Positions 1 through 16,842 of a DNA stretch of 64,000 nt are shown piece by piece. The DNA is taken from NCBI GenBank assembly GCA_963721975.1, contig CAVRLF010000004.1, positions 3,033 to 67,032 on the forward strand. The letters are read 5' to 3'. The stretch's first letter is position 1, and every line of letters starts with the position of its first letter. The position numbers and the translations under genes were made by a program. Below the pieces are notes generated by a model, which made no database searches, had not been told where the DNA came from, and saw only the letters and a list, made by a program, of their open reading frames with translations. The stretch is from an uncultured Alphaproteobacteria bacterium (GTDB lineage Bacteria > Pseudomonadota > Alphaproteobacteria > Rhizobiales > Rhodomicrobiaceae).

Positions 1-593
1 CGTCTCGACGTCATGGTCGGCGACGAGCGCGCGGGCGTTGTCGACGAGGACTTCTTCCGGCGCGCCGCCAAAGGTTAGAAAGGCGCTCTCAAGCCCCTCG
101 AACCAGCTTTCCCGCCGCTCATTGCGGAAAGCGCGCACATGCAGCCGCCGCGAATAGCCGAGCACAGCAACGAACAAGTATACCTTGATTGGCGCCGCCA
201 ATCTCAACCAGCCGCTCGCCGAAATCGATCTGCAGCTGCCGGCCCGAAGCCGTCTCGAAGCGAATGCTCGCCCGCGCCTCCGCCTCAAGCTCCTGCCGAT
301 AGCGCTCGACCGCGCGCTCCACCGTCCGCAAGCTCGCCGCAACGCCCTTCTAGCAGCTCCTGGCGCACCACATCGGCATTGCCGCGATGCCGCCGGAACC
401 GCTCCTTTAGCCAATCGCCGTGCTCGCCCAGAAGCTTCTCCCGTTTCGGGTTCTTGAAAGGCCGCCAGCCCCCGGCTTGCAAATACCGCCTCACCGTCGT
501 CCGGCTGACGCCAAACTCAGCCGCAATCCGCTTCGACCCCCATCCAGCTGCCTTGAGCCGCAGCATCGCCGCCCCCCCCTCAGGCTCAATCAT
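1..593 (-). pseudogene. istA: IS21 transposase IstA, N-terminal part, frameshifted twice
   Basis: GAGGAG RBS, then MIEPEGGAAMLRLKAAGWGSKRIAAEFGVSRTTVRRYL (HTH). Continues in a second frame (RTVERAV..RFETASGRQLQIDFGE) and a third (KVYLFVAVLGYSRRLHVRAF). Frame changes near 330 and 190. Confidence 0.85.
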
Positions 594-744
594 CTCCTCT
601 CCCCGCGGTTCTTCAGACCGCGGACGGACTACCAAGAGTTCTTCTGTCTGCTGTGTGATCGTCCATCAAAACCCCCTTCTTGCCGATGCCAAGGGGGTCA
701 GTTCCTCATGGCGTCAGGGGGTCAGTTTTCCATGTCGCCCGACA
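1..744 (-). mobile_element. IS21-family insertion sequence, one end (runs off window start)
   Basis: Minus strand begins TGTCGGGCGACA at 744. Two internal direct repeats (AGGGGGTCAGTT at 692-703 and 716-727) are typical of IS21 ends. istA-like coding follows. Confidence 0.85.
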
Positions 745-769
745 GGAGGGAGAGGGCTGGGGTGAGGGG
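745..769. repeat. Half of a REP-like CCCTCTCCC/GGGAGAGGG palindromic element abutting the IS21 end
   Basis: GGAGGGAGAGGGCTGGGGTGAGGGG matches the right arm of the elements at 10719-10817, 50330-50490 and 53802-53889. Confidence 0.65.
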
Positions 770-1091
770 CTGCGCAAAATAGAGGCTGGGCGCCACGGCG
801 TTTTTCTTGACCGACGGCGCCTTACGGCCCACCCGTTGGCGAGTCGCGCACGGCTCGCCGCCCGCTCGGATCGCGCCTAACCCTTTATGCTTAACAGACG
901 GGCGCAAGAGGCTTATTTCCGGCCAAAACGAACCCAATCGAACCTAATAAAGCCAATTCCAGCGCGAAAACTGCCCATTTTTGCCCTCGGTGGGGCGACC
1001 AGATGTCCGTTAATTATGTTTTTGTGGCGGAATTAATTATACGGCCCTTTTCGCGGGCGCCGCGGGGCTCGCAAGCCGTGAAACTCCGCGG

Positions 1092-1143
1092 CCTCATCCG
1101 GAGCCCGTCGAAGCCTCATTCTACGCTTGTCGAAGGATGGGGG
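1092..1143. repeat. Short palindromic intergenic repeat (CCTCATCC...CTTGTCGAAGGATGGGG type)
   Basis: CCTCATCC at the start pairs imperfectly with GGATGGGG at the end. Resembles common alphaproteobacterial REP-like elements. Confidence 0.35.
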
Positions 1144-1374
1144 CAGGCGTTCGCCGCGGCGCCGGCCGCGCCTAAAGCAGAAGCGCCGCCTTTTTTACCG
1201 ATCCCGGCTCGCGCTTCGCTTGGCCGGGAAATTCGTTGCTATAGAAAGGGTTGGTCAGGCTAACGACGCCCCCTTAACCTCTCGGTAAGGCGCTTCTTCT
1301 TAAGTTCCGCACCAACCTGGCGGTCGACCCCCATGACTGAAAATGCGCGGCGTCCTGCGGTATGCTCTATATAG

Positions 1375-1550
1375 GGCTGGCCGCTGGCAAAGAGGTCGTT
1401 TTGTCTATGGTGCGCGCAAGCCCGTTCTTAAGTTGGACCGGGGGCGCCTCGATTACCCCCAATGGAGCCAAGGAGCAGCAATGCTCTGGGAGCAGGTTTC
1501 TTAGGGTTCTTTTTCATGAGGTCCCCACGCTGGCGGCAGCCGAGGGAGAA
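1375..1550 (+). ncRNA. Candidate IS110 bridge RNA in the non-coding left end
   Basis: About 180 nt of non-coding sequence before the recombinase ATG, with several hairpins (1440-1460, 1473-1486, 1488-1525). TTCTTAGGG at 1498-1506 equals the reconstructed donor junction. Confidence 0.5.
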
Positions 1551-1554
1551 CGTA

Positions 1555-2826
1555 ATGGAAGTCATGCATGAGCGTGTCGCCGGGCTTGATGTTCACAAGG
1601 AGACGGTCGTTTGCTGTGTGCGCATCATTGCTGGCGGGAAGGTCTCGCGAGAATGCCGAACCTTCGAGACGACTACAACTGCTCTCGAAACTTTGCTGGC
1701 CTGGCTGACGCAGAGCGGATGCACGCATGTGGCGATGGAAGCCACCGGCGTCTATTGGAAGCCCGTGTGGAACATCTTGAACGATGGCAAGTTCGAGCTG
1801 ATTTTGGCCAATGCGGCGCATATCAAGAACGTGCCGGGCCGCAAGACGGATGTGAATGACGCTGCCTGGATCGCCGATCTGACGGCCTTCGGCCTAATCA
1901 ACGCGAGCTTTGTCCCGGACGAAGCGATCCAGGAGTTGCGCTCGCTGATGCGGGCGCGCAAGCAACTGGTCCGCGAGCAGACGCGGCATATCCAGCGGAT
2001 CCAGAAGACGCTCGAAGAAGCCAACATCAAGCTCGATTTCGTGATCAGCGCCATCATGGGCGTTTCCGGGCGGCGGATGATCGAAGCGATGATCGCAGGC
2101 GTGCGCAATCCCCACAAGCTGGCGCAATTGGCCGACCGGCGGATCAAGGCCTCGCCGAAAGCGCTCTACGACGCGCTGCACGGCCGGCTGACCGATCATC
2201 GCCGCTTCATATTGCGGCTTCACCTCGGCCAATACGACGCCTTGGCCTCTTCCATCGCGCAGATTGACGCCCAGACAGATGCGGCGAACGCCAGGATCAC
2301 TGAGGAGGCGGCCACGGGCCGCAGCTCCTTTCGCGACATGACCACGCTTTTGGACGCCATTCCCCGCATTGCGAGTTTGGCGGCGACCGCGATCCTTGCC
2401 GAGATCGGAACCGATATGGGCCGGTTTCCAACGGCTGGGCATCTCGTGTCCTGGGCTGGCTTGTGCCCTGGCCAGAACGAAAGCGCGGGCAAACGCAAAT
2501 CCTCGCGGCTTCGCAAGGGCGCCCCCTAGCTCAAGACGCTGCTCGTCCAATGCGCCTGGGCGGCGGCCAGGAAGAAGGATAGTTACTACAAGGCGCAATT
2601 CAATCGCCTCAAGGCCAGGCGCGGCCCCAAGACAGCGATCTGCGCGGTGGCCGCCTCGATGCTCACGGCGATTTACCACATGCTGAAAGATGGCGTCGAA
2701 CATCAGGATCTTGGGGGCGGCTATTTTGATCGACGCCCGGTCGAGGAAAAAGCCAACCGCCTGGTCGCTCAACTGGCCAAGCTCGGCTTCAGGGCCGAAC
2801 TTCAACCGCTAGCGGAGGCCGCTTGA
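1555..2826 (+). pseudogene. IS110-family recombinase/transposase with premature amber stop at 2527-2529
   Basis: RuvC-like DEDD motifs GLDVHK, MEATG and KTDVNDA, plus C-terminal NESAGK. GAP-TAG-LKTLLVQCAWAA continues in frame to TGA 2824-2826. Confidence 0.9.
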
Positions 2827-3322
2827 TGGCGCTCAAAAACCAGCGGCCGCGCCTGCTCCGGCTACCCGGCCGCGTTGCGGCCGGGTGAGTTTCTTCTTAG
2901 AGCTCACGACGAGCCGCGCGGGCGCGCTTTGAAGCGGGCGGTATTGCCGCCGCGCCTCTTGTGGCTGTGTCTACGCGCTGATGTCCACAGCCTCAGCTTC
3001 TCGTTCCGGTTGCCCGAAAGCGCGAAGCGGACAGCCGCGGCCGACTATGCGCGCCGACCTGAGCCAGCCGGATCAAACAGAGGCGTGCGCGGCTGGCGAA
3101 GGTGGAACTGGCGAAAACGTCATCAAGGCGCCACACCGCACGGGCTTAATCGAATAAGGCATGTAGACATGCCAGCGCTGCAAGACGCGAGCCCGCTCGG
3201 CGCCGTTGATCCGCCTGAGCCTGGACTGAAGATGACTGGCGGAAGATAGACTGTCTGCGCCGGTCACGAAGCCTTGTATGAAGATGCTGAACCACTTTGT
3301 CGTGCGGGGTCGTTGTTAGACT

Positions 3323-3541
3323 ATGTACCTGCATGATTGCCCGGGAGCTGTCCTTGACTACCTCGTTGAGAGCGAAAGCCTCGATTGGGTACTCGCCAGC
3401 CTCATAGAGATAGCCGAGCAGAAAGCCAAAAATCCGCAAGCGGACAAGGTTGCTGCGGCGCAATGGGGCCGGACCATTCATCGGCTTAACGGGTTGCGCG
3501 CGTGGTGCATGGAGTTCGGACCAGAGTCCGGCTGCCGATAG
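3323..3541 (+). CDS. Hypothetical 72-aa protein, paralogue of 3612-3824
   Basis: Conserved blocks with the downstream ORF (LVESESLD, ADKVAAAQW, WC..FGP.SGCR) support coding. Confidence 0.7.
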   Translation: MYLHDCPGAVLDYLVESESLDWVLASLIEIAEQKAKNPQADKVAAAQWGRTIHRLNGLRAWCMEFGPESGCR

Positions 3542-3611
3542 GATCGCTACTCTCCTCTGCAGCTGTTTCCTGTTTCGGGTTTATGCGTCGTCTTTTTGTG
3601 GGGGGTTTGTG

Positions 3612-3824
3612 ATGTATGACCGTCATAGAGATGTCCTCGAATGCCTCGTTGAGAATGAAAGCCTCGATGGGGTTCTCTACAGACTTATAAGAATAGCCGA
3701 GAAGAAGGCTCAATATCAGTACGCAGACAAGGTCTCGGCAGCTCAATGGAAGCGAACCGTTCGCCGGCTTGCCGAGGTTCGCAAATGGTGCGCTGCATTC
3801 GGCCCGGGGTCGGGGTGCCGGTAA
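3612..3824 (+). CDS. Hypothetical 70-aa protein, paralogue of 3323-3541
   Basis: MYDRHRDVLECLVENESLDGVLYRLIRIAEKKAQ..ADKVSAAQWKRTVRRL..WCAAFGPGSGCR. Confidence 0.7.
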   Translation: MYDRHRDVLECLVENESLDGVLYRLIRIAEKKAQYQYADKVSAAQWKRTVRRLAEVRKWCAAFGPGSGCR

Positions 3825-4131
3825 AGTCTGCTTCCGAACCTGCGCCGCCAGCATGAATAGGCTTCGAGAACTCAGACCGCGCCGCCTGCGCTTGAGCGGA
3901 TAAATATTAGCCTGAATAGTTCGAAGTGATCGGAAGGCGCTTGCTCCATCGCCTCGCTTGGGTAGGATGCGTGCAAAACGACACGAAAGCAGCCCTCTGG
4001 GTGGGCAGCTTTCCTACTTGAGGATCGATCGATCTTTCCGCCTTTAATCGCGTCAGACGAAAGGCGGGCTGATCCAGAGGCGCCGCGAGGCCGCAACCGG
4101 CCATGCGCCAGCAACGAGCGAGGTGAGGGCA

Positions 4132-5034
4132 ATGGCGGCTGTGCGCGGCGTGGGATTTTCGAGCGCTGTTCAGGAAGACATCTATTTCGACCGGCTGAGG
4201 GAGAACCTCGACCAGGCTGAGGAGTTCGGCGTCGATTTTGTTGAGTTGCCGCTGTTCATGATGGATTTGATCGCGGGCGGCCGTGTGCTGCAGCCCCAGA
4301 TGCATCGACTGCACGACGCGCTGAAGGCGCGGACCGTCGGATTCACTGCGCACGGCCCTATCGGCCTCAATTTTATGCAGCCGCCGGAGATCGCCGCGCG
4401 CCACCTGACGATCGCCAAGGCGGCCATCGAGGTCGCGGCGGAAATCGGCGCGCCGCATCTCGTTTTGCACACCGGCCGCACGATGGCGCAAACAGACGCG
4501 GAGATCGAAGACCTCTACGCCCGCCAGCGCGACGCCTTCGCCTCGCTCGGAGACATCGCGGCCAAGCATTCGATCGTCATCGCGATCGAGAATATTTTCC
4601 CGACCAGGCCCGGCGAACATGTGGCGCTGCCGTCGCGTCTTGCCCGCGAGATCGAGACGGTCAACCACAGACACGTGCGCGGTTGCCTCGATTTCTCGCA
4701 CGCGACTTTGACCTGCGCTGGCGCGGGCGTGGACTTCTTCGCCGACGCCAAGACGCTCGCCCGCGTCTCACGCCACTTGCATATTCACGATTCGTTCGGC
4801 GACCCGGCGCAGTTCTACACCTTCTCAAGGTCCGAGCGGCTCGCCTACGGGCTCGGCGATCTGCATCTGCCCATCGGCTGGGGCGCGATACAGTGGCCCG
4901 CCATCATGGCGGAGTTCACCTTCGAGCCGGACGCGATCTTCAACCTCGAACTACCCCTCCCATACTGGTTCGCGCTCGAAGACAGCGTTCGCGCCGTTAA
5001 GGAGATGGCCGATCTCTACCGGTCCCGCAGCTGA
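4132..5034 (+). CDS. Sugar phosphate isomerase/epimerase (AP endonuclease family 2 TIM barrel)
   Basis: Motifs LVLHTG, IAIEN, CLDFSHA and HLHIHD. Confidence 0.8.
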   Translation: MAAVRGVGFSSAVQEDIYFDRLRENLDQAEEFGVDFVELPLFMMDLIAGGRVLQPQMHRLHDALKARTVGFTAHGPIGLNFMQPPEIAARHLTIAKAAIEVAAEIGAPHLVLHTGRTMAQTDAEIEDLYARQRDAFASLGDIAAKHSIVIAIENIFPTRPGEHVALPSRLAREIETVNHRHVRGCLDFSHATLTCAGAGVDFFADAKTLARVSRHLHIHDSFGDPAQFYTFSRSERLAYGLGDLHLPIGWGAIQWPAIMAEFTFEPDAIFNLELPLPYWFALEDSVRAVKEMADLYRSRS

Positions 5035-5088
5035 GCTTCTGGATCTTAAAGCGGCGTTGTGCGAAAAGGCCGAAAGAACTCCGCGGCT

Positions 5089-6159
5089 TCATGCCTTGCG
5101 CATTCTGTCGAGCCAGTTGGGCTTATACGGCGCGCAGATGTCGTCGTTGCCCATGGCGTCTGCGAGGACCCGCTTCATATTTCTCGTAAAGCGGTCTGTG
5201 TTGATCCGCAAAACGCGGTCATGACCGCCTTCAGGAATGAGGGGTTCATAAGCGGCAAGCTCCGGTTCTCTGCGGCAACCCGACGGGCGGTTGTCCAGGA
5301 AAACGCGTAAGAGCCCCTCATGGGCGTGACCGAAATCCTCCTTGATCACGTCCGCCAAGGGGCCGATGGTGGTTGCGCTCAGCGCAAGCTCCTCAAATCC
5401 TACGCTCGTCGTGTCCCAACCTGCGCGGATCAGCAAGGTGCACGCCGTGCATGGCGTAAAGTCCTGCCTCGGCCGAGTGCTCGTCATCAGCCCAAGCTTG
5501 CAGTCTTTTGTATCCCTGTCCCCGTCCCCATGGTCGAGCATGATGACGCGCGCGCGATCGCGATCTCTCGTTTCCTGGCCGATATTTGTGCCCATGAGGA
5601 CGGCTGTCCTGCCGATCAGGATAACGGGACCTTCGAAATAGAACATGGGATCGTTGCCTCGCCGCGAATGGCGAATGAACGACATTCTGTGCATCAGGGT
5701 GGAGCCCTCGCGCCAGACACGCACGACTTCTCGCGCCGCATCGCCTGTATCGATCGAATCCAGGCTGTATCGGTAGGCGATGTGCACGCCGCAAAGCCAA
5801 TCTTCCACGGTCGAAACGAGCTGAGGGTAGTCAGGCGGCACGCGCACCGCGACGGCGCCGGCTCCGTAACGCTTGTCGTTGAAGTCTTTGAGCGAAGCGC
5901 TCGAAAACCATTCTCCACGCAACTCAGGAATGGCGACGCGATTGAAGAACTCGGCGAGCCTTTTGCTCGTATTGCTCGCTATGCGATGAGGTGTTCCGTT
6001 GAGGATGGCGAGCACGGTTCCTTGTGCTATCTTTGATTGCTCGGCGATAGATTTCGCTTTCGCGTTGTCGGTTGCGGGAAGGTGCAGCGCTGAGCCATAC
6101 TCATCGATCAAAGCGCGCAGAATTTGCGTTATCGGGGGATCATTCGGCCCGTGTAGCAT
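5089..6159 (-). CDS. Hypothetical 356-aa protein with XRE-like N-terminal helix-turn-helix
   Basis: Long ORF. IAEQSKIAQGTVLAILNG..ASNTSKRLAEFF resembles an XRE HTH. The C-terminal domain was not recognised. Confidence 0.6.
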   Translation of the reverse strand: MLHGPNDPPITQILRALIDEYGSALHLPATDNAKAKSIAEQSKIAQGTVLAILNGTPHRIASNTSKRLAEFFNRVAIPELRGEWFSSASLKDFNDKRYGAGAVAVRVPPDYPQLVSTVEDWLCGVHIAYRYSLDSIDTGDAAREVVRVWREGSTLMHRMSFIRHSRRGNDPMFYFEGPVILIGRTAVLMGTNIGQETRDRDRARVIMLDHGDGDRDTKDCKLGLMTSTRPRQDFTPCTACTLLIRAGWDTTSVGFEELALSATTIGPLADVIKEDFGHAHEGLLRVFLDNRPSGCRREPELAAYEPLIPEGGHDRVLRINTDRFTRNMKRVLADAMGNDDICAPYKPNWLDRMRKA

Positions 6160-16433: not shown

Positions 16434-16842
16434 ATGCTTTTGGAATGGAATGAAAACCTGTCGGTTGGCGTGCCCAGCATCGATGAGCAGCACAAAGCGC
16501 TGTTAGGATTGCTCAATGAACTCTTCGACGCCACGCAGGCTGGGAGAGGGCAGGTCGTGTTGGGCAAGGTGCTTAAGGAGCTTGCCGACTACACAGTTTA
16601 TCATTTCCAGTATGAGGAGTCCCCTCTTCGCCCAGACGGGCTATAGCGCTGCTCCGGATCACATCAAAGAACATGACGAGTTGGTCAGACTGGTTCAAGC
16701 ACTGAGGCAGAAGTATGAGAACGGCGCCACCGAAATTCTGTCTGAAGAGCTTCTGAATTTCCTGAGAAGGTGGCTGTACACGCACATCATGGGCAGTGAC
16801 AAGAAATTCGGGCCGCACTTGGTCTCAATGGGAATAAAGTAA
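16434..16842 (+). pseudogene. Bacteriohemerythrin with a +1 frameshift near 16620 (possible sequencing error)
   Basis: W..LSVG..IDEQHK..HFQYEE in one frame, then LFAQTGY..HIKEH..WL..HI..SD in another. Extra C in TCCCCTC. Confidence 0.8.

What the first reader, a model, noticed from the sequence alone, without database searches (positions are those of the whole stretch)
1375..1550. Candidate bridge RNA with visible donor- and target-matching segments
Seen: the ~180-nt non-coding left end has hairpins (GGGGG/CCCCC 1440-1460; GAGCA-GCAA-TGCTC 1473-1486; GGGA/TCCC 1488-1525). TTCTTAGGG (1498-1506) is identical to the reconstructed donor junction across the core. CAGCC (1537-1541) is complementary to the first post-core donor bases GGCTG. 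ATGCTCT (1481-1487) is identical to the left target flank (1362-1368). Established: IS110 bridge RNAs carry separate target- and donor-binding loops. Inference: this is the bridge RNA of a TAG-core subfamily, a possible programmable recombinase guide. The matches are short and the loop assignments are tentative.
Basis: partly seen in the sequence, partly recalled or inferred. Interest (0 to 1): 0.75.

Follow-up and report, generated by a model that had tools for sequence, protein, structure and literature searches.

The report
Bridge RNA of a defective IS110 element

Summary
Window 1305-2900 is a 1596-bp IS110-family insertion sequence. Its DEDD recombinase gene (1555-2826) carries an amber codon at 2527-2529, where homologues have Trp.

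The left end is at 1305, not 1375, and the core is the dinucleotide AG, not TAG. Four identical copies in one MAG and 74 homologous loci fix these ends.

The 250-nt left end holds a conserved RNA at about 1380-1537. In 52 homologues, 95.8% of cells are paired and 24 of 35 pairs show compensatory changes.

Two segments covary with the junctions:
- 1426-1432 (UCUUA+AG) equals the left target flank plus core.
- 1498-1504 (UUCUU+AG) equals the right IS end plus core.

A short right-target guide lies at 1403-1406. No guide for the left IS end was found.

The CAGCC and ATGCTCT matches and two hairpins do not.

Compared with IS621, the long guides sit on the 3' strands of the loops. This is a bridge RNA, a new member of a known kind.

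The parts
1303..1304 (+). Core dinucleotide AG at the left junction (left target flank ...GCGCTTCTTCTTA | AG | TTCCGC = IS left end)
   Evidence: The junction is fixed by four identical IS copies with different flanks (L010-L013) and by 74 aligned homologues that all read AG at this column.
1305..2900 (+). IS110-family insertion sequence, 1596 bp including the right core copy; the only full copy in this genome
   Evidence: Pfam PF01548 and PF02371 on the encoded protein.
1305..1379 (+). Terminal part of the left end: right-donor bases TTCCGCACC, a GC-rich hairpin region, a conserved (A)TGAAA(A/C) motif, and a -10-like CTATAT at 1367-1372 just upstream of the RNA's first helix
   Evidence: Conserved in homologues and in three left-end remnants in the same genome. 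The promoter role is inferred only; no sigma-70 consensus was found.
1380..1537 (+). Structured core of the bridge RNA, bounded by closing helix P1 (1380-1388 with 1529-1537)
   Evidence: RNAalifold and pair counts on 52 homologues: 95.8% paired, 24 of 35 pairs compensatory, 0 of 500 shuffles as good, slid controls 35-48% paired. Covariance model R1 hits only here and at the C3 paralogue in the whole genome.
1394..1439 (+). Target-binding domain: helix P2 (1394-1397 with 1436-1439) encloses an internal loop around hairpin P2a (1408-1413 with 1420-1424)
   Evidence: P2 is 100% paired with GG-UC/GA-CC changing to GA-UC/GA-UC and GG-UU/AA-CC. P2a is 98.8% paired with 3 compensatory pairs.
1403..1407 (+). 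Candidate right target guide on the 5' strand of the loop: C1405-U1406 complement the core AG and U1404 pairs with the first right-flank base (A2901). In this copy only 3 bp form.
   Evidence: Watson-Crick matches to right-flank positions +1..+5: 103 against 75.1 +/- 6.2 in permutations. Contiguous run from the core: 58 against 26.3 +/- 5.8 (53 insertions). Distant homologues show 4-7 bp in the same register (L096 UCCUGCU/AGCAGGA, L098 GGGG/CCCC, L099 CCAUU/AATGG, L101 UGCUC/GAGCA; my reading of the sequences).
1426..1434 (+). Left target guide UCUUA (1426-1430) + core AG (1431-1432) + UU (1433-1434). It has the same sequence as left flank + core + the first two IS bases, so it would pair with the bottom strand.
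   Evidence: Identity to left-flank positions -5..-1 is 0.81-0.98, MI up to 1.85 bits (n=63), z 6.8-13.9 against permuted targets. Position 1434 matches the second IS base in 93%. The 10-mer TTCTTAAGTT occurs only at 1297-1306 and 1425-1434. The guide predicts the left boundary in 8 distant homologues.
1441..1526 (+). Donor-binding domain: long-range helix P3 (1441-1444 and 1446-1450 with 1518-1522 and 1523-1526) encloses a conserved 5' strand (1451-1466), a 2-bp helix (1467-1468 with 1492-1493), hairpin P4 (1472-1477 with 1482-1487) and the guide-bearing 3' strand
   Evidence: P3 has 8 of 9 pairs with compensatory changes; P4 has 5 of 6.
1498..1505 (+). Left donor guide UUCUU (1498-1502) + core AG (1503-1504). 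Position 1505 tends to equal the first right-flank base.
   Evidence: Identity to the last five bases of the IS right end is 0.95-1.0, MI up to 1.44 bits (n=55). Position 1505 equals the first right-flank base in 58% against 32% expected, z 5.6. The guide predicts the right IS end in distant homologues.
1555..2826 (+). IS110-family DEDD recombinase gene (423 codons), inactivated by an amber codon at 2527-2529 where homologues have Trp
   Evidence: Pfam PF01548 (6.7e-34) and PF02371 (2.1e-22). W325 is nearly invariant in 19 aligned homologues. More than 8000 homologues found, best 91% identical.
2863..2900 (+). Right end: GC-rich hairpin 2863-2887 followed by GTTTCTTCTT (2889-2898, the left-donor bases) and core AG (2899-2900). 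It looks like an intrinsic terminator.
   Evidence: Terminator scan. The motif GTTTCTT-NNN-AG is conserved at the right end of homologues.

Best explanation
Window 1305-2900 is an IS110-family insertion sequence of the long-recombinase subgroup (423 aa, about 45-49% identical to Streptomyces homologues). Its 250-nt left end encodes a bridge RNA at about 1380-1537.

The RNA folds into two guide-bearing internal loops held together by one closing helix. In the first loop, the 3' strand (UCUUA-AG-UU, 1426-1434) has the sequence of left target flank + core + the first IS bases. [quoted passage not shown] The 5' strand (..UCU, 1404-1406) complements the core plus the first right-flank base on the top strand. 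In the second loop, the 3' strand (UUCUU-AG, 1498-1504) has the sequence of the IS right end + core.

By analogy with IS621, the recombinase-RNA complex would bring the circularised IS (right end-AG-left end) and a target (...TCTTA-AG-A...) together and exchange strands at the AG core.

Shown here: the element ends, the conserved structure, and the covariation of both long guides with target and donor. Inferred: transcription, recombinase binding and the chemistry.

This copy is non-autonomous because its recombinase has a nonsense mutation. It sits in a short motif repeated in this genus (TTAACC-N17-C(G/T)(C/T)TAAG).
For: Ends: four identical copies with different flanks and 74 homologues aligned at AG|TT..CACC and GTTTCTT-NNN-AG|.

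Structure: 95.8% paired, 24 of 35 pairs compensatory, 0 of 500 shuffles as good, slid controls at most 48% paired. The single-sequence MFE recovers the same helices.

Guides: left target guide identity 0.81-0.98 with MI up to 1.85 bits; left donor guide identity 0.95-1.0; z up to 13.9 against permuted targets; right target guide permutation test.

Out-of-sample: model R1 finds the RNA directly upstream of the recombinase gene in 8 distant homologues from Beta-proteobacteria, Alicyclobacillus and Streptomyces. Their predicted guides locate their IS ends.

Genome-wide, R1 hits only the two IS110 copies of this lineage.

Protein: PF01548 + PF02371.

Mechanistic frame: PMC11208160 and PMC11208158.
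Against: No sigma-70 consensus promoter was found.

No guide for the IS left end (right donor guide) could be found by covariation or complementarity scans.

The single-sequence folding energy is not better than shuffles (z -0.17).

Rfam has no matching family.

The right target guide pairs only 3 bp with this copy's own right flank.

The recombinase gene is broken, so the RNA here may be a relic.
Confidence: 0.87

Rival explanations
1. One reading: the IS begins at 1375 with a TAG core; 1481-1487 binds the left target flank; 1498-1506 spans the donor junction; 1537-1541 binds the first IS bases.
For: TAG occurs at 1372-1374 and 2898-2900, and the quoted short matches exist.
Against: Homology with the C3 paralogue, three remnants and 74 homologues runs through 1375 and starts at 1305. 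Copies L010-L013 diverge exactly at AG|TTTTTCACC. ATGCTCT is at chance frequency and lies in a covarying hairpin. The base before AG varies in both target and donor.
Confidence: 0.02
2. The conserved left-end structure is only a cis-acting leader or protein-binding region (transposase mRNA 5' UTR, translational control, end recognition). The matches to the junctions reflect sequence repetition at IS ends, not RNA guiding.
For: No terminator separates the RNA from the recombinase gene. A Shine-Dalgarno sequence follows helix P1 directly, so the region is probably co-transcribed as a leader. No independent promoter was found.
Against: The left-target-guide segment covaries with flanking host DNA, which differs between lineages and is not part of the element. 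A leader has no reason to track target sequence. The same arrangement is experimentally shown to guide recombination in IS621, ISEc21 and ISPpu10. Co-transcription followed by processing is what was proposed for seekRNAs.
Confidence: 0.06
3. The RNA gene is intact in sequence, but the element is a dead relic. The RNA is not made or has no partner, so the locus has no present function.
For: Amber codon in the recombinase. This is a single copy in the genome. The only related intact recombinase (C3, 63% identity) has different guides. The region holds other IS debris.
Against: All helices and guide segments match the family consensus (160.9 bits). Only one nonsense change is seen, so inactivation is recent. 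This rival concerns activity, not identity, and is compatible with the main explanation.
Confidence: 0.5

Closest known systems
IS621 bridge RNA (IS110 group; Durrant et al. 2024, PMC11208160; Hiraizumi et al. 2024, PMC11208158)
   Same: It is encoded in the long left end upstream of a DEDD recombinase. It has two internal loops, one matching the target and one the donor. A core dinucleotide is included in the guides. Two further bases after the core match the partner DNA, like the handshake guides. The donor guide is more conserved than the target guide.
   Different: The core is AG, not CT. The long guides that pair with the bottom strand sit on the 3' strand of each loop; in IS621 they sit on the 5' strand. 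The left guides are only 5(-6) nt plus core. Both loops are enclosed by one closing helix. No right donor guide was detected. The recombinase is 423 aa against 326 aa.
seekRNAs of IS1111-type elements and of the IS110-type ISEc21 (Siddiquee et al. 2024, PMC11187229)
   Same: Short segments match both strands of the target. In IS1111-type seekRNAs the top-strand complement lies 5' of the bottom-strand match, which is the order seen here. The RNA is probably co-transcribed with the recombinase mRNA.
   Different: IS1111-type RNAs lie downstream of the recombinase gene, and those elements have subterminal inverted repeats. Here the RNA is upstream and no such repeats were seen. ISEc21, also with an upstream RNA, has the opposite segment order.
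ISPpu10 bridge RNA (bioRxiv 10.64898/2026.03.19.712850)
   Same: A family member whose guide strand polarity is reported to depart from the IS621 definitions. Its target is a repeated intergenic element. A terminator-like context lies at the insertion junction.
   Different: ISPpu10's RNA is encoded in the right end and its core is CT. A structural gate in the target has not been tested here.

Membership tests
IS110-family insertion sequence (IS110 group) | DEDD (RuvC-like) N-terminal domain plus the Transposase_20 C-terminal domain | tested here: met
   PF01548 at 6.7e-34 and PF02371 at 2.1e-22. The gene is interrupted by an amber codon at 2527-2529.
IS110-family insertion sequence (IS110 group) | Long non-coding left end, short right end, no terminal inverted repeats, and insertion without target duplication beyond a shared core | tested here: met
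   The left end is 250 nt and the right end 74 nt. Only AG is shared at both junctions. No subterminal inverted repeat was seen by eye; this was not tested formally.
Bridge RNA / seekRNA | Conserved structured RNA in the non-coding end with two guide-bearing internal loops | tested here: met
   Six helices, 95.8% paired, 24 of 35 pairs compensatory. The model hits upstream of the recombinase gene in distant homologues.
Bridge RNA / seekRNA | A loop segment covaries with the target left flank plus core | tested here: met
   Positions 1426-1432: identity 0.81-0.98, MI up to 1.85 bits, z up to 13.9. Out-of-sample prediction of left boundaries.
Bridge RNA / seekRNA | A loop segment covaries with the donor (IS right end plus core) | tested here: met
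   Positions 1498-1504: identity 0.95-1.0, MI up to 1.44 bits. Out-of-sample prediction.
Bridge RNA / seekRNA | A segment complementary to the top strand of core plus right target flank | tested here: met
   The 3' end of 1398-1407. Permutation test: 103 against 75 +/- 6 matches and a run of 58 against 26 +/- 6; 4-7 bp in distant homologues. The pairing is short and imperfect in natural sites, only 3 bp in this copy.
Bridge RNA / seekRNA | A segment complementary to the top strand of core plus the IS left end (right donor guide) | tested here: not met
   No column covaries with IS bases +3..+5 above background (MI at most 0.54). The complementarity scan gave only the quasi-palindromic AGUU. 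IS bases +1 and +2 are nearly invariant, so a very short guide cannot be excluded.
Bridge RNA / seekRNA | The RNA is transcribed, binds the recombinase and is required for recombination | not testable with these tools
There is no biochemical assay.
IS621-type architecture specifically | [quoted passage not shown] | tested here: not met
   Both left guides lie on the 3' strands, after hairpins P2a and P4. The right target guide candidate is on the 5' strand. The core is AG, compared with the description in PMC11208160.

The most novel reading that the evidence does not exclude
The long-recombinase 'IS110 proper' subgroup (about 400-455 aa; found here in Alpha- and Beta-proteobacteria, Acidobacteriota, Planctomycetota, Alicyclobacillus and Streptomyces) may use one distinct bridge-RNA architecture. 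It is encoded in the left end but is the mirror image of IS621. The long guides with their handshake bases lie on the 3' strands. Short top-strand guides lie on the 5' strand. The core is AG, the reverse complement of CT. A single closing helix encloses both loops, and there is no RNA guide for the IS left end. This would imply that the polarity of strand exchange relative to the element is inverted, and that one donor half-site is read by protein or not at all.
Probability: 0.35. Interest if true: 0.55.

Novelty: new member of a known kind. Interest (0 to 1): 0.35.

Why it matters
Bridge RNAs are the guides of programmable DNA recombinases, so each well-defined family adds a candidate tool and a test of how general the IS621 rules are. 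This locus gives correct ends, a covariation-backed secondary structure and guide assignments. The family spans several phyla and has thousands of homologues.

Within the IS110 group, the guide order and core polarity are not fixed. This copy itself is broken and adds no new mechanism. The value is mainly in correcting the annotation and in a family-level model (R1) that predicts IS ends from the RNA.

Tried and rejected
- Rfam scan of window 1-6000 and of four uninterrupted copies of the target motif: no hit at E<=1.
- Sigma-70 promoter scan: nothing. An earlier idea that (A)TGAAA(A/C) is a -35 box was dropped because its spacing to the -10-like element varies from 5 to about 25 nt among homologues.
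- Right donor guide: MI against IS bases +1..+10 and a register-free complementarity scan gave only the trivial AGUU quasi-palindrome. By-eye candidates were rejected: G(U/C)UCC near 1521-1526 belongs to helix P3, and AAUGGA (1461-1466) shows no covariation.
- A handshake reading of 1464-1466 against the last left-flank bases worked only in the REP-targeting clade, and the link of 1522 with the last left-flank base fits its P3 pairing.
- The first column-wise test for a right target guide failed because of a one-base register shift between clades. It succeeded once the register was anchored on the CU before helix P2a.
- Orthologous empty site: none in 30 relatives; only the repeated motif matched.
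- An EcfG-type promoter reading of the target motif was rejected because the spacing is 19 nt instead of 16-17 (own count output).
- A hairpin in the target upstream of the left flank is not conserved among motif copies.

Full report
**What is at the locus.** Window 1555-2826 (+) encodes a 423-codon IS110-family recombinase. It matches Pfam PF01548 (DEDD_Tnp_IS110, 6.7e-34) and PF02371 (2.1e-22). An amber codon at 2527-2529 interrupts it. Aligned homologues have a nearly invariant Trp at that position, so this is a TGG-to-TAG nonsense change.

More than 8000 homologues exist, the best 91% identical. The window's genome holds one full copy and one 63%-identical paralogue at C3:17444-18670(-). 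It also holds several end remnants.

**True ends of the element.** Three lines of evidence contradict this.

- BLAST of the left region against the genome finds remnants whose homology runs from about 1300 to 1384. It crosses 1375 without a break.
- The C3 paralogue is alignable from AG|TTCAACACC onward.
- Four identical copies in one MAG (L010-L013) have unrelated flanks. They diverge exactly at ...CCTAAG|TTTTTCACC on the left and GTTTCTTCTTAG| on the right.

In 74 homologous loci the left junction always reads N-AG|T(T)...CACC. The right end reads GTTTCTT-NNN-AG|. The base before AG varies in both target and donor, so the core is the dinucleotide AG.

In the window:
- The IS spans 1305-2900 (1596 bp).
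- The left junction is GCGCTTCTTCTTA-AG-TTCCGC.
- The right junction is GTTTCTTCTT-AG-AGCTCAC.

An earlier scan note (e1-5236021) reconstructs a palindromic empty site around a TAG core. It rests on the same wrong boundary.

**Conserved RNA structure.** I aligned 52 distinct left ends that correspond to 1374-1546 (A5). RNAalifold and explicit pair counting give six helices:

| Helix | Window positions |
|---|---|
| P1 | 1380-1388 with 1529-1537 |
| P2 | 1394-1397 with 1436-1439 |
| P2a | 1408-1413 with 1420-1424 |
| P3 | 1441-1444 and 1446-1450 with 1518-1526 |
| 2-bp helix | 1467-1468 with 1492-1493 |
| P4 | 1472-1477 with 1482-1487 |

Overall, 95.8% of cells are paired and 24 of 35 pairs show compensatory changes. 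None of 500 shuffles reaches these values, and slid controls are 35-48% paired.

GGGGG/CCCCC is 71.7% paired and GGGA/UCCC 56.3% paired, with almost no compensatory change. Only the GAGCA/UGCUC hairpin (P4) holds. The single-sequence MFE recovers the same helices, but its energy is not unusual for this GC-rich sequence (z -0.17). The support therefore comes from comparison, not from thermodynamics.

**Guide segments.** I compared every left-end column with junction positions and tested against permuted targets.

- Positions 1426-1430 equal left-flank positions -5..-1. Identity is 0.81-0.98, MI is 0.85-1.85 bits and z is 6.8-13.9. AG follows at 1431-1432.
- Positions 1498-1502 equal the last five bases of the IS right end. 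Identity is 0.95-1.0 and MI reaches 1.44 bits. AG follows at 1503-1504.
- Position 1434 equals the second IS base in 93% of sequences.
- Position 1505 equals the first right-flank base in 58%, against 32% expected (z 5.6).

The bases after each core therefore match the partner DNA. This resembles the handshake guides of IS621 (PMC11208158).

In the window itself, TTCTTAAGTT occurs only at the left junction (1297-1306) and at 1425-1434. Chance expectation is 0.02.

A right target guide sits at the 3' end of the loop's 5' strand (1398-1407). C1405-U1406 complement the core. Across 53 independent insertions:
- Complementarity to right-flank positions +1..+5 is 103 matches, against 75.1 +/- 6.2 in permutations.
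- The contiguous run from the core is 58, against 26.3 +/- 5.8.

I found no right donor guide.

**Out-of-sample test.** Covariance model R1 was built from A5. In the whole genome it hits only the window copy (160.9 bits) and the C3 paralogue (148.6 bits), each directly upstream of a recombinase gene. It hits none of 150 other genomes of the same order.

In eight distant homologues (45-56% amino-acid identity) it finds the RNA just upstream of the recombinase gene, at 113 to 20 bits. These come from Cupriavidus, Variovorax, Burkholderia, Caballeronia, Alicyclobacillus and Streptomyces plasmids.

Their predicted left target guide + AG reappears 60-116 nt upstream, at the left boundary. Their left donor guide + AG reappears at the right end. 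Reading the sequences printed:
- Their right target guides pair 4-7 bp with the right flank.
- The 2-3 bases after the left-target-guide core track the first IS bases (TTG, TGG, CG, AC, ACT).

**Mechanism.** By analogy with IS621, the recombinase-RNA complex would bring together two DNAs and exchange strands at AG:
- the circular IS junction, GTTTCTTCTT-AG-TTCCGC;
- a target, ...TCTTA-AG-A....

Shown here:
- the element ends;
- the structure;
- the covariation of both long guides, and the statistical support for the short right target guide.

Inferred:
- transcription;
- recombinase binding;
- the chemistry.

No terminator separates the RNA from the recombinase gene, so co-transcription and processing are likely, as proposed for seekRNAs. 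The right-end hairpin plus U-tract (2863-2898) looks like the terminator of the recombinase mRNA.

[quoted passage not shown] Here the order is the opposite and the core is AG, the reverse complement of CT. Viewed from the other DNA strand, the RNA is an IS621-like layout, handshake bases included. The long and short guides are exchanged.

Siddiquee et al. report the order 'top-strand complement first' for IS1111-type seekRNAs, which lie downstream of the gene. They report the reverse order for the IS110-type ISEc21. A 2026 preprint reports non-canonical strand polarity for ISPpu10. Durrant et al. modelled hundreds of IS110 RNAs with diverse structures.

I therefore file this as a new member of a known kind. 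The mirror-image architecture of the long-recombinase subgroup is the most novel reading that the evidence does not exclude.

**Target.** The left flank belongs to a motif, TTAACC-N17-C(G/T)(C/T)TAAG(AT). It has at least six copies in this genome and up to 24 matches per genome in the same genus. It is also the insertion site of L011-L013 in another MAG. Rfam does not recognise it and its nature is unresolved.

**Limits.**
- The permutation tests ignore relatedness between sequences.
- The right donor guide remains unidentified.
- Figures of the cited papers could not be inspected, so prior description of this exact architecture cannot be excluded.

Noticed in passing
window 1268-1304; also G000 C14:246973-247003, C11:~87240-87310, C14:~178070-178140, C20:~16690-16760, C4 minus strand (index 153699 on the reverse complement), C19:~650389: The IS sits in a conserved ~35-nt motif, TTAACC-N17-C(G/T)(C/T)TAAG(AT). 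It is repeated at least 6 times in this genome and gives up to 24 matches per genome in the same genus. The same motif is the insertion site of three IS copies in an unrelated MAG (L011-L013). Rfam has no hit and its function is unknown (promoter-like or terminator-like?).
   Followed up: partly
window 1200-1229 and more than 60 other places in the genome: The REP-like repeat GATCCCGGCTCGCGCTTCGCTTGGCCGGGA (an inverted-repeat hairpin) is scattered over all contigs.
   Followed up: no
G000 C19:311260-311344(-), C4:136718-136797(+), C19:~558857(+): Solo remnants of the first ~85 nt of related IS110 left ends (hairpin, TGAAAA motif, -10-like box) occur without a recombinase gene. The C4:136718 copy is preceded by GTTTCTCTTTA, which looks like a degenerate right end-left end junction.
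   Followed up: partly
G000 C19:624482-625032(-) and C19:22356-22468(+): Right-end remnants of related IS110 copies. The first includes the last 117 codons of the recombinase at 85% identity.
   Followed up: no
window 1-640, minus strand: Degenerate fragment of a transposase with an N-terminal helix-turn-helix (..LRLKAAGWGSKRIAAEFGVSRTTVRRYLQ..), broken by stops and frameshifts. It looks IS21/IstA-like by eye, so the region is an IS graveyard.
   Followed up: no
window 3323-3541 and 3450-3824 (+): Two adjacent paralogous small ORFs share ..ESLD.VL..LI.IAE.KA....ADKV.AAQW.RT..RL...R.WC..FGP.SGCR. Their function is unknown.
   Followed up: no
L050 (right flank equals its own left end), L078, L097 (RNA model hits at 521-693 and 2009-2181): Head-to-tail tandem copies of homologous IS elements occur. 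They are either directly abutted (right end-AG-left end) or separated by a 12-nt target-like spacer. This fits insertion next to an existing copy, because target and donor left halves resemble each other.
   Followed up: partly
L021-L032, L036-L040, L068, L074, L076: A clade of homologues inserts into the alphaproteobacterial REP sequence CGTCATTGCG-AG-(C/G)GAAGCG... Their left target guide reads UUGCG-AG or UCGCG-AG accordingly.
   Followed up: partly
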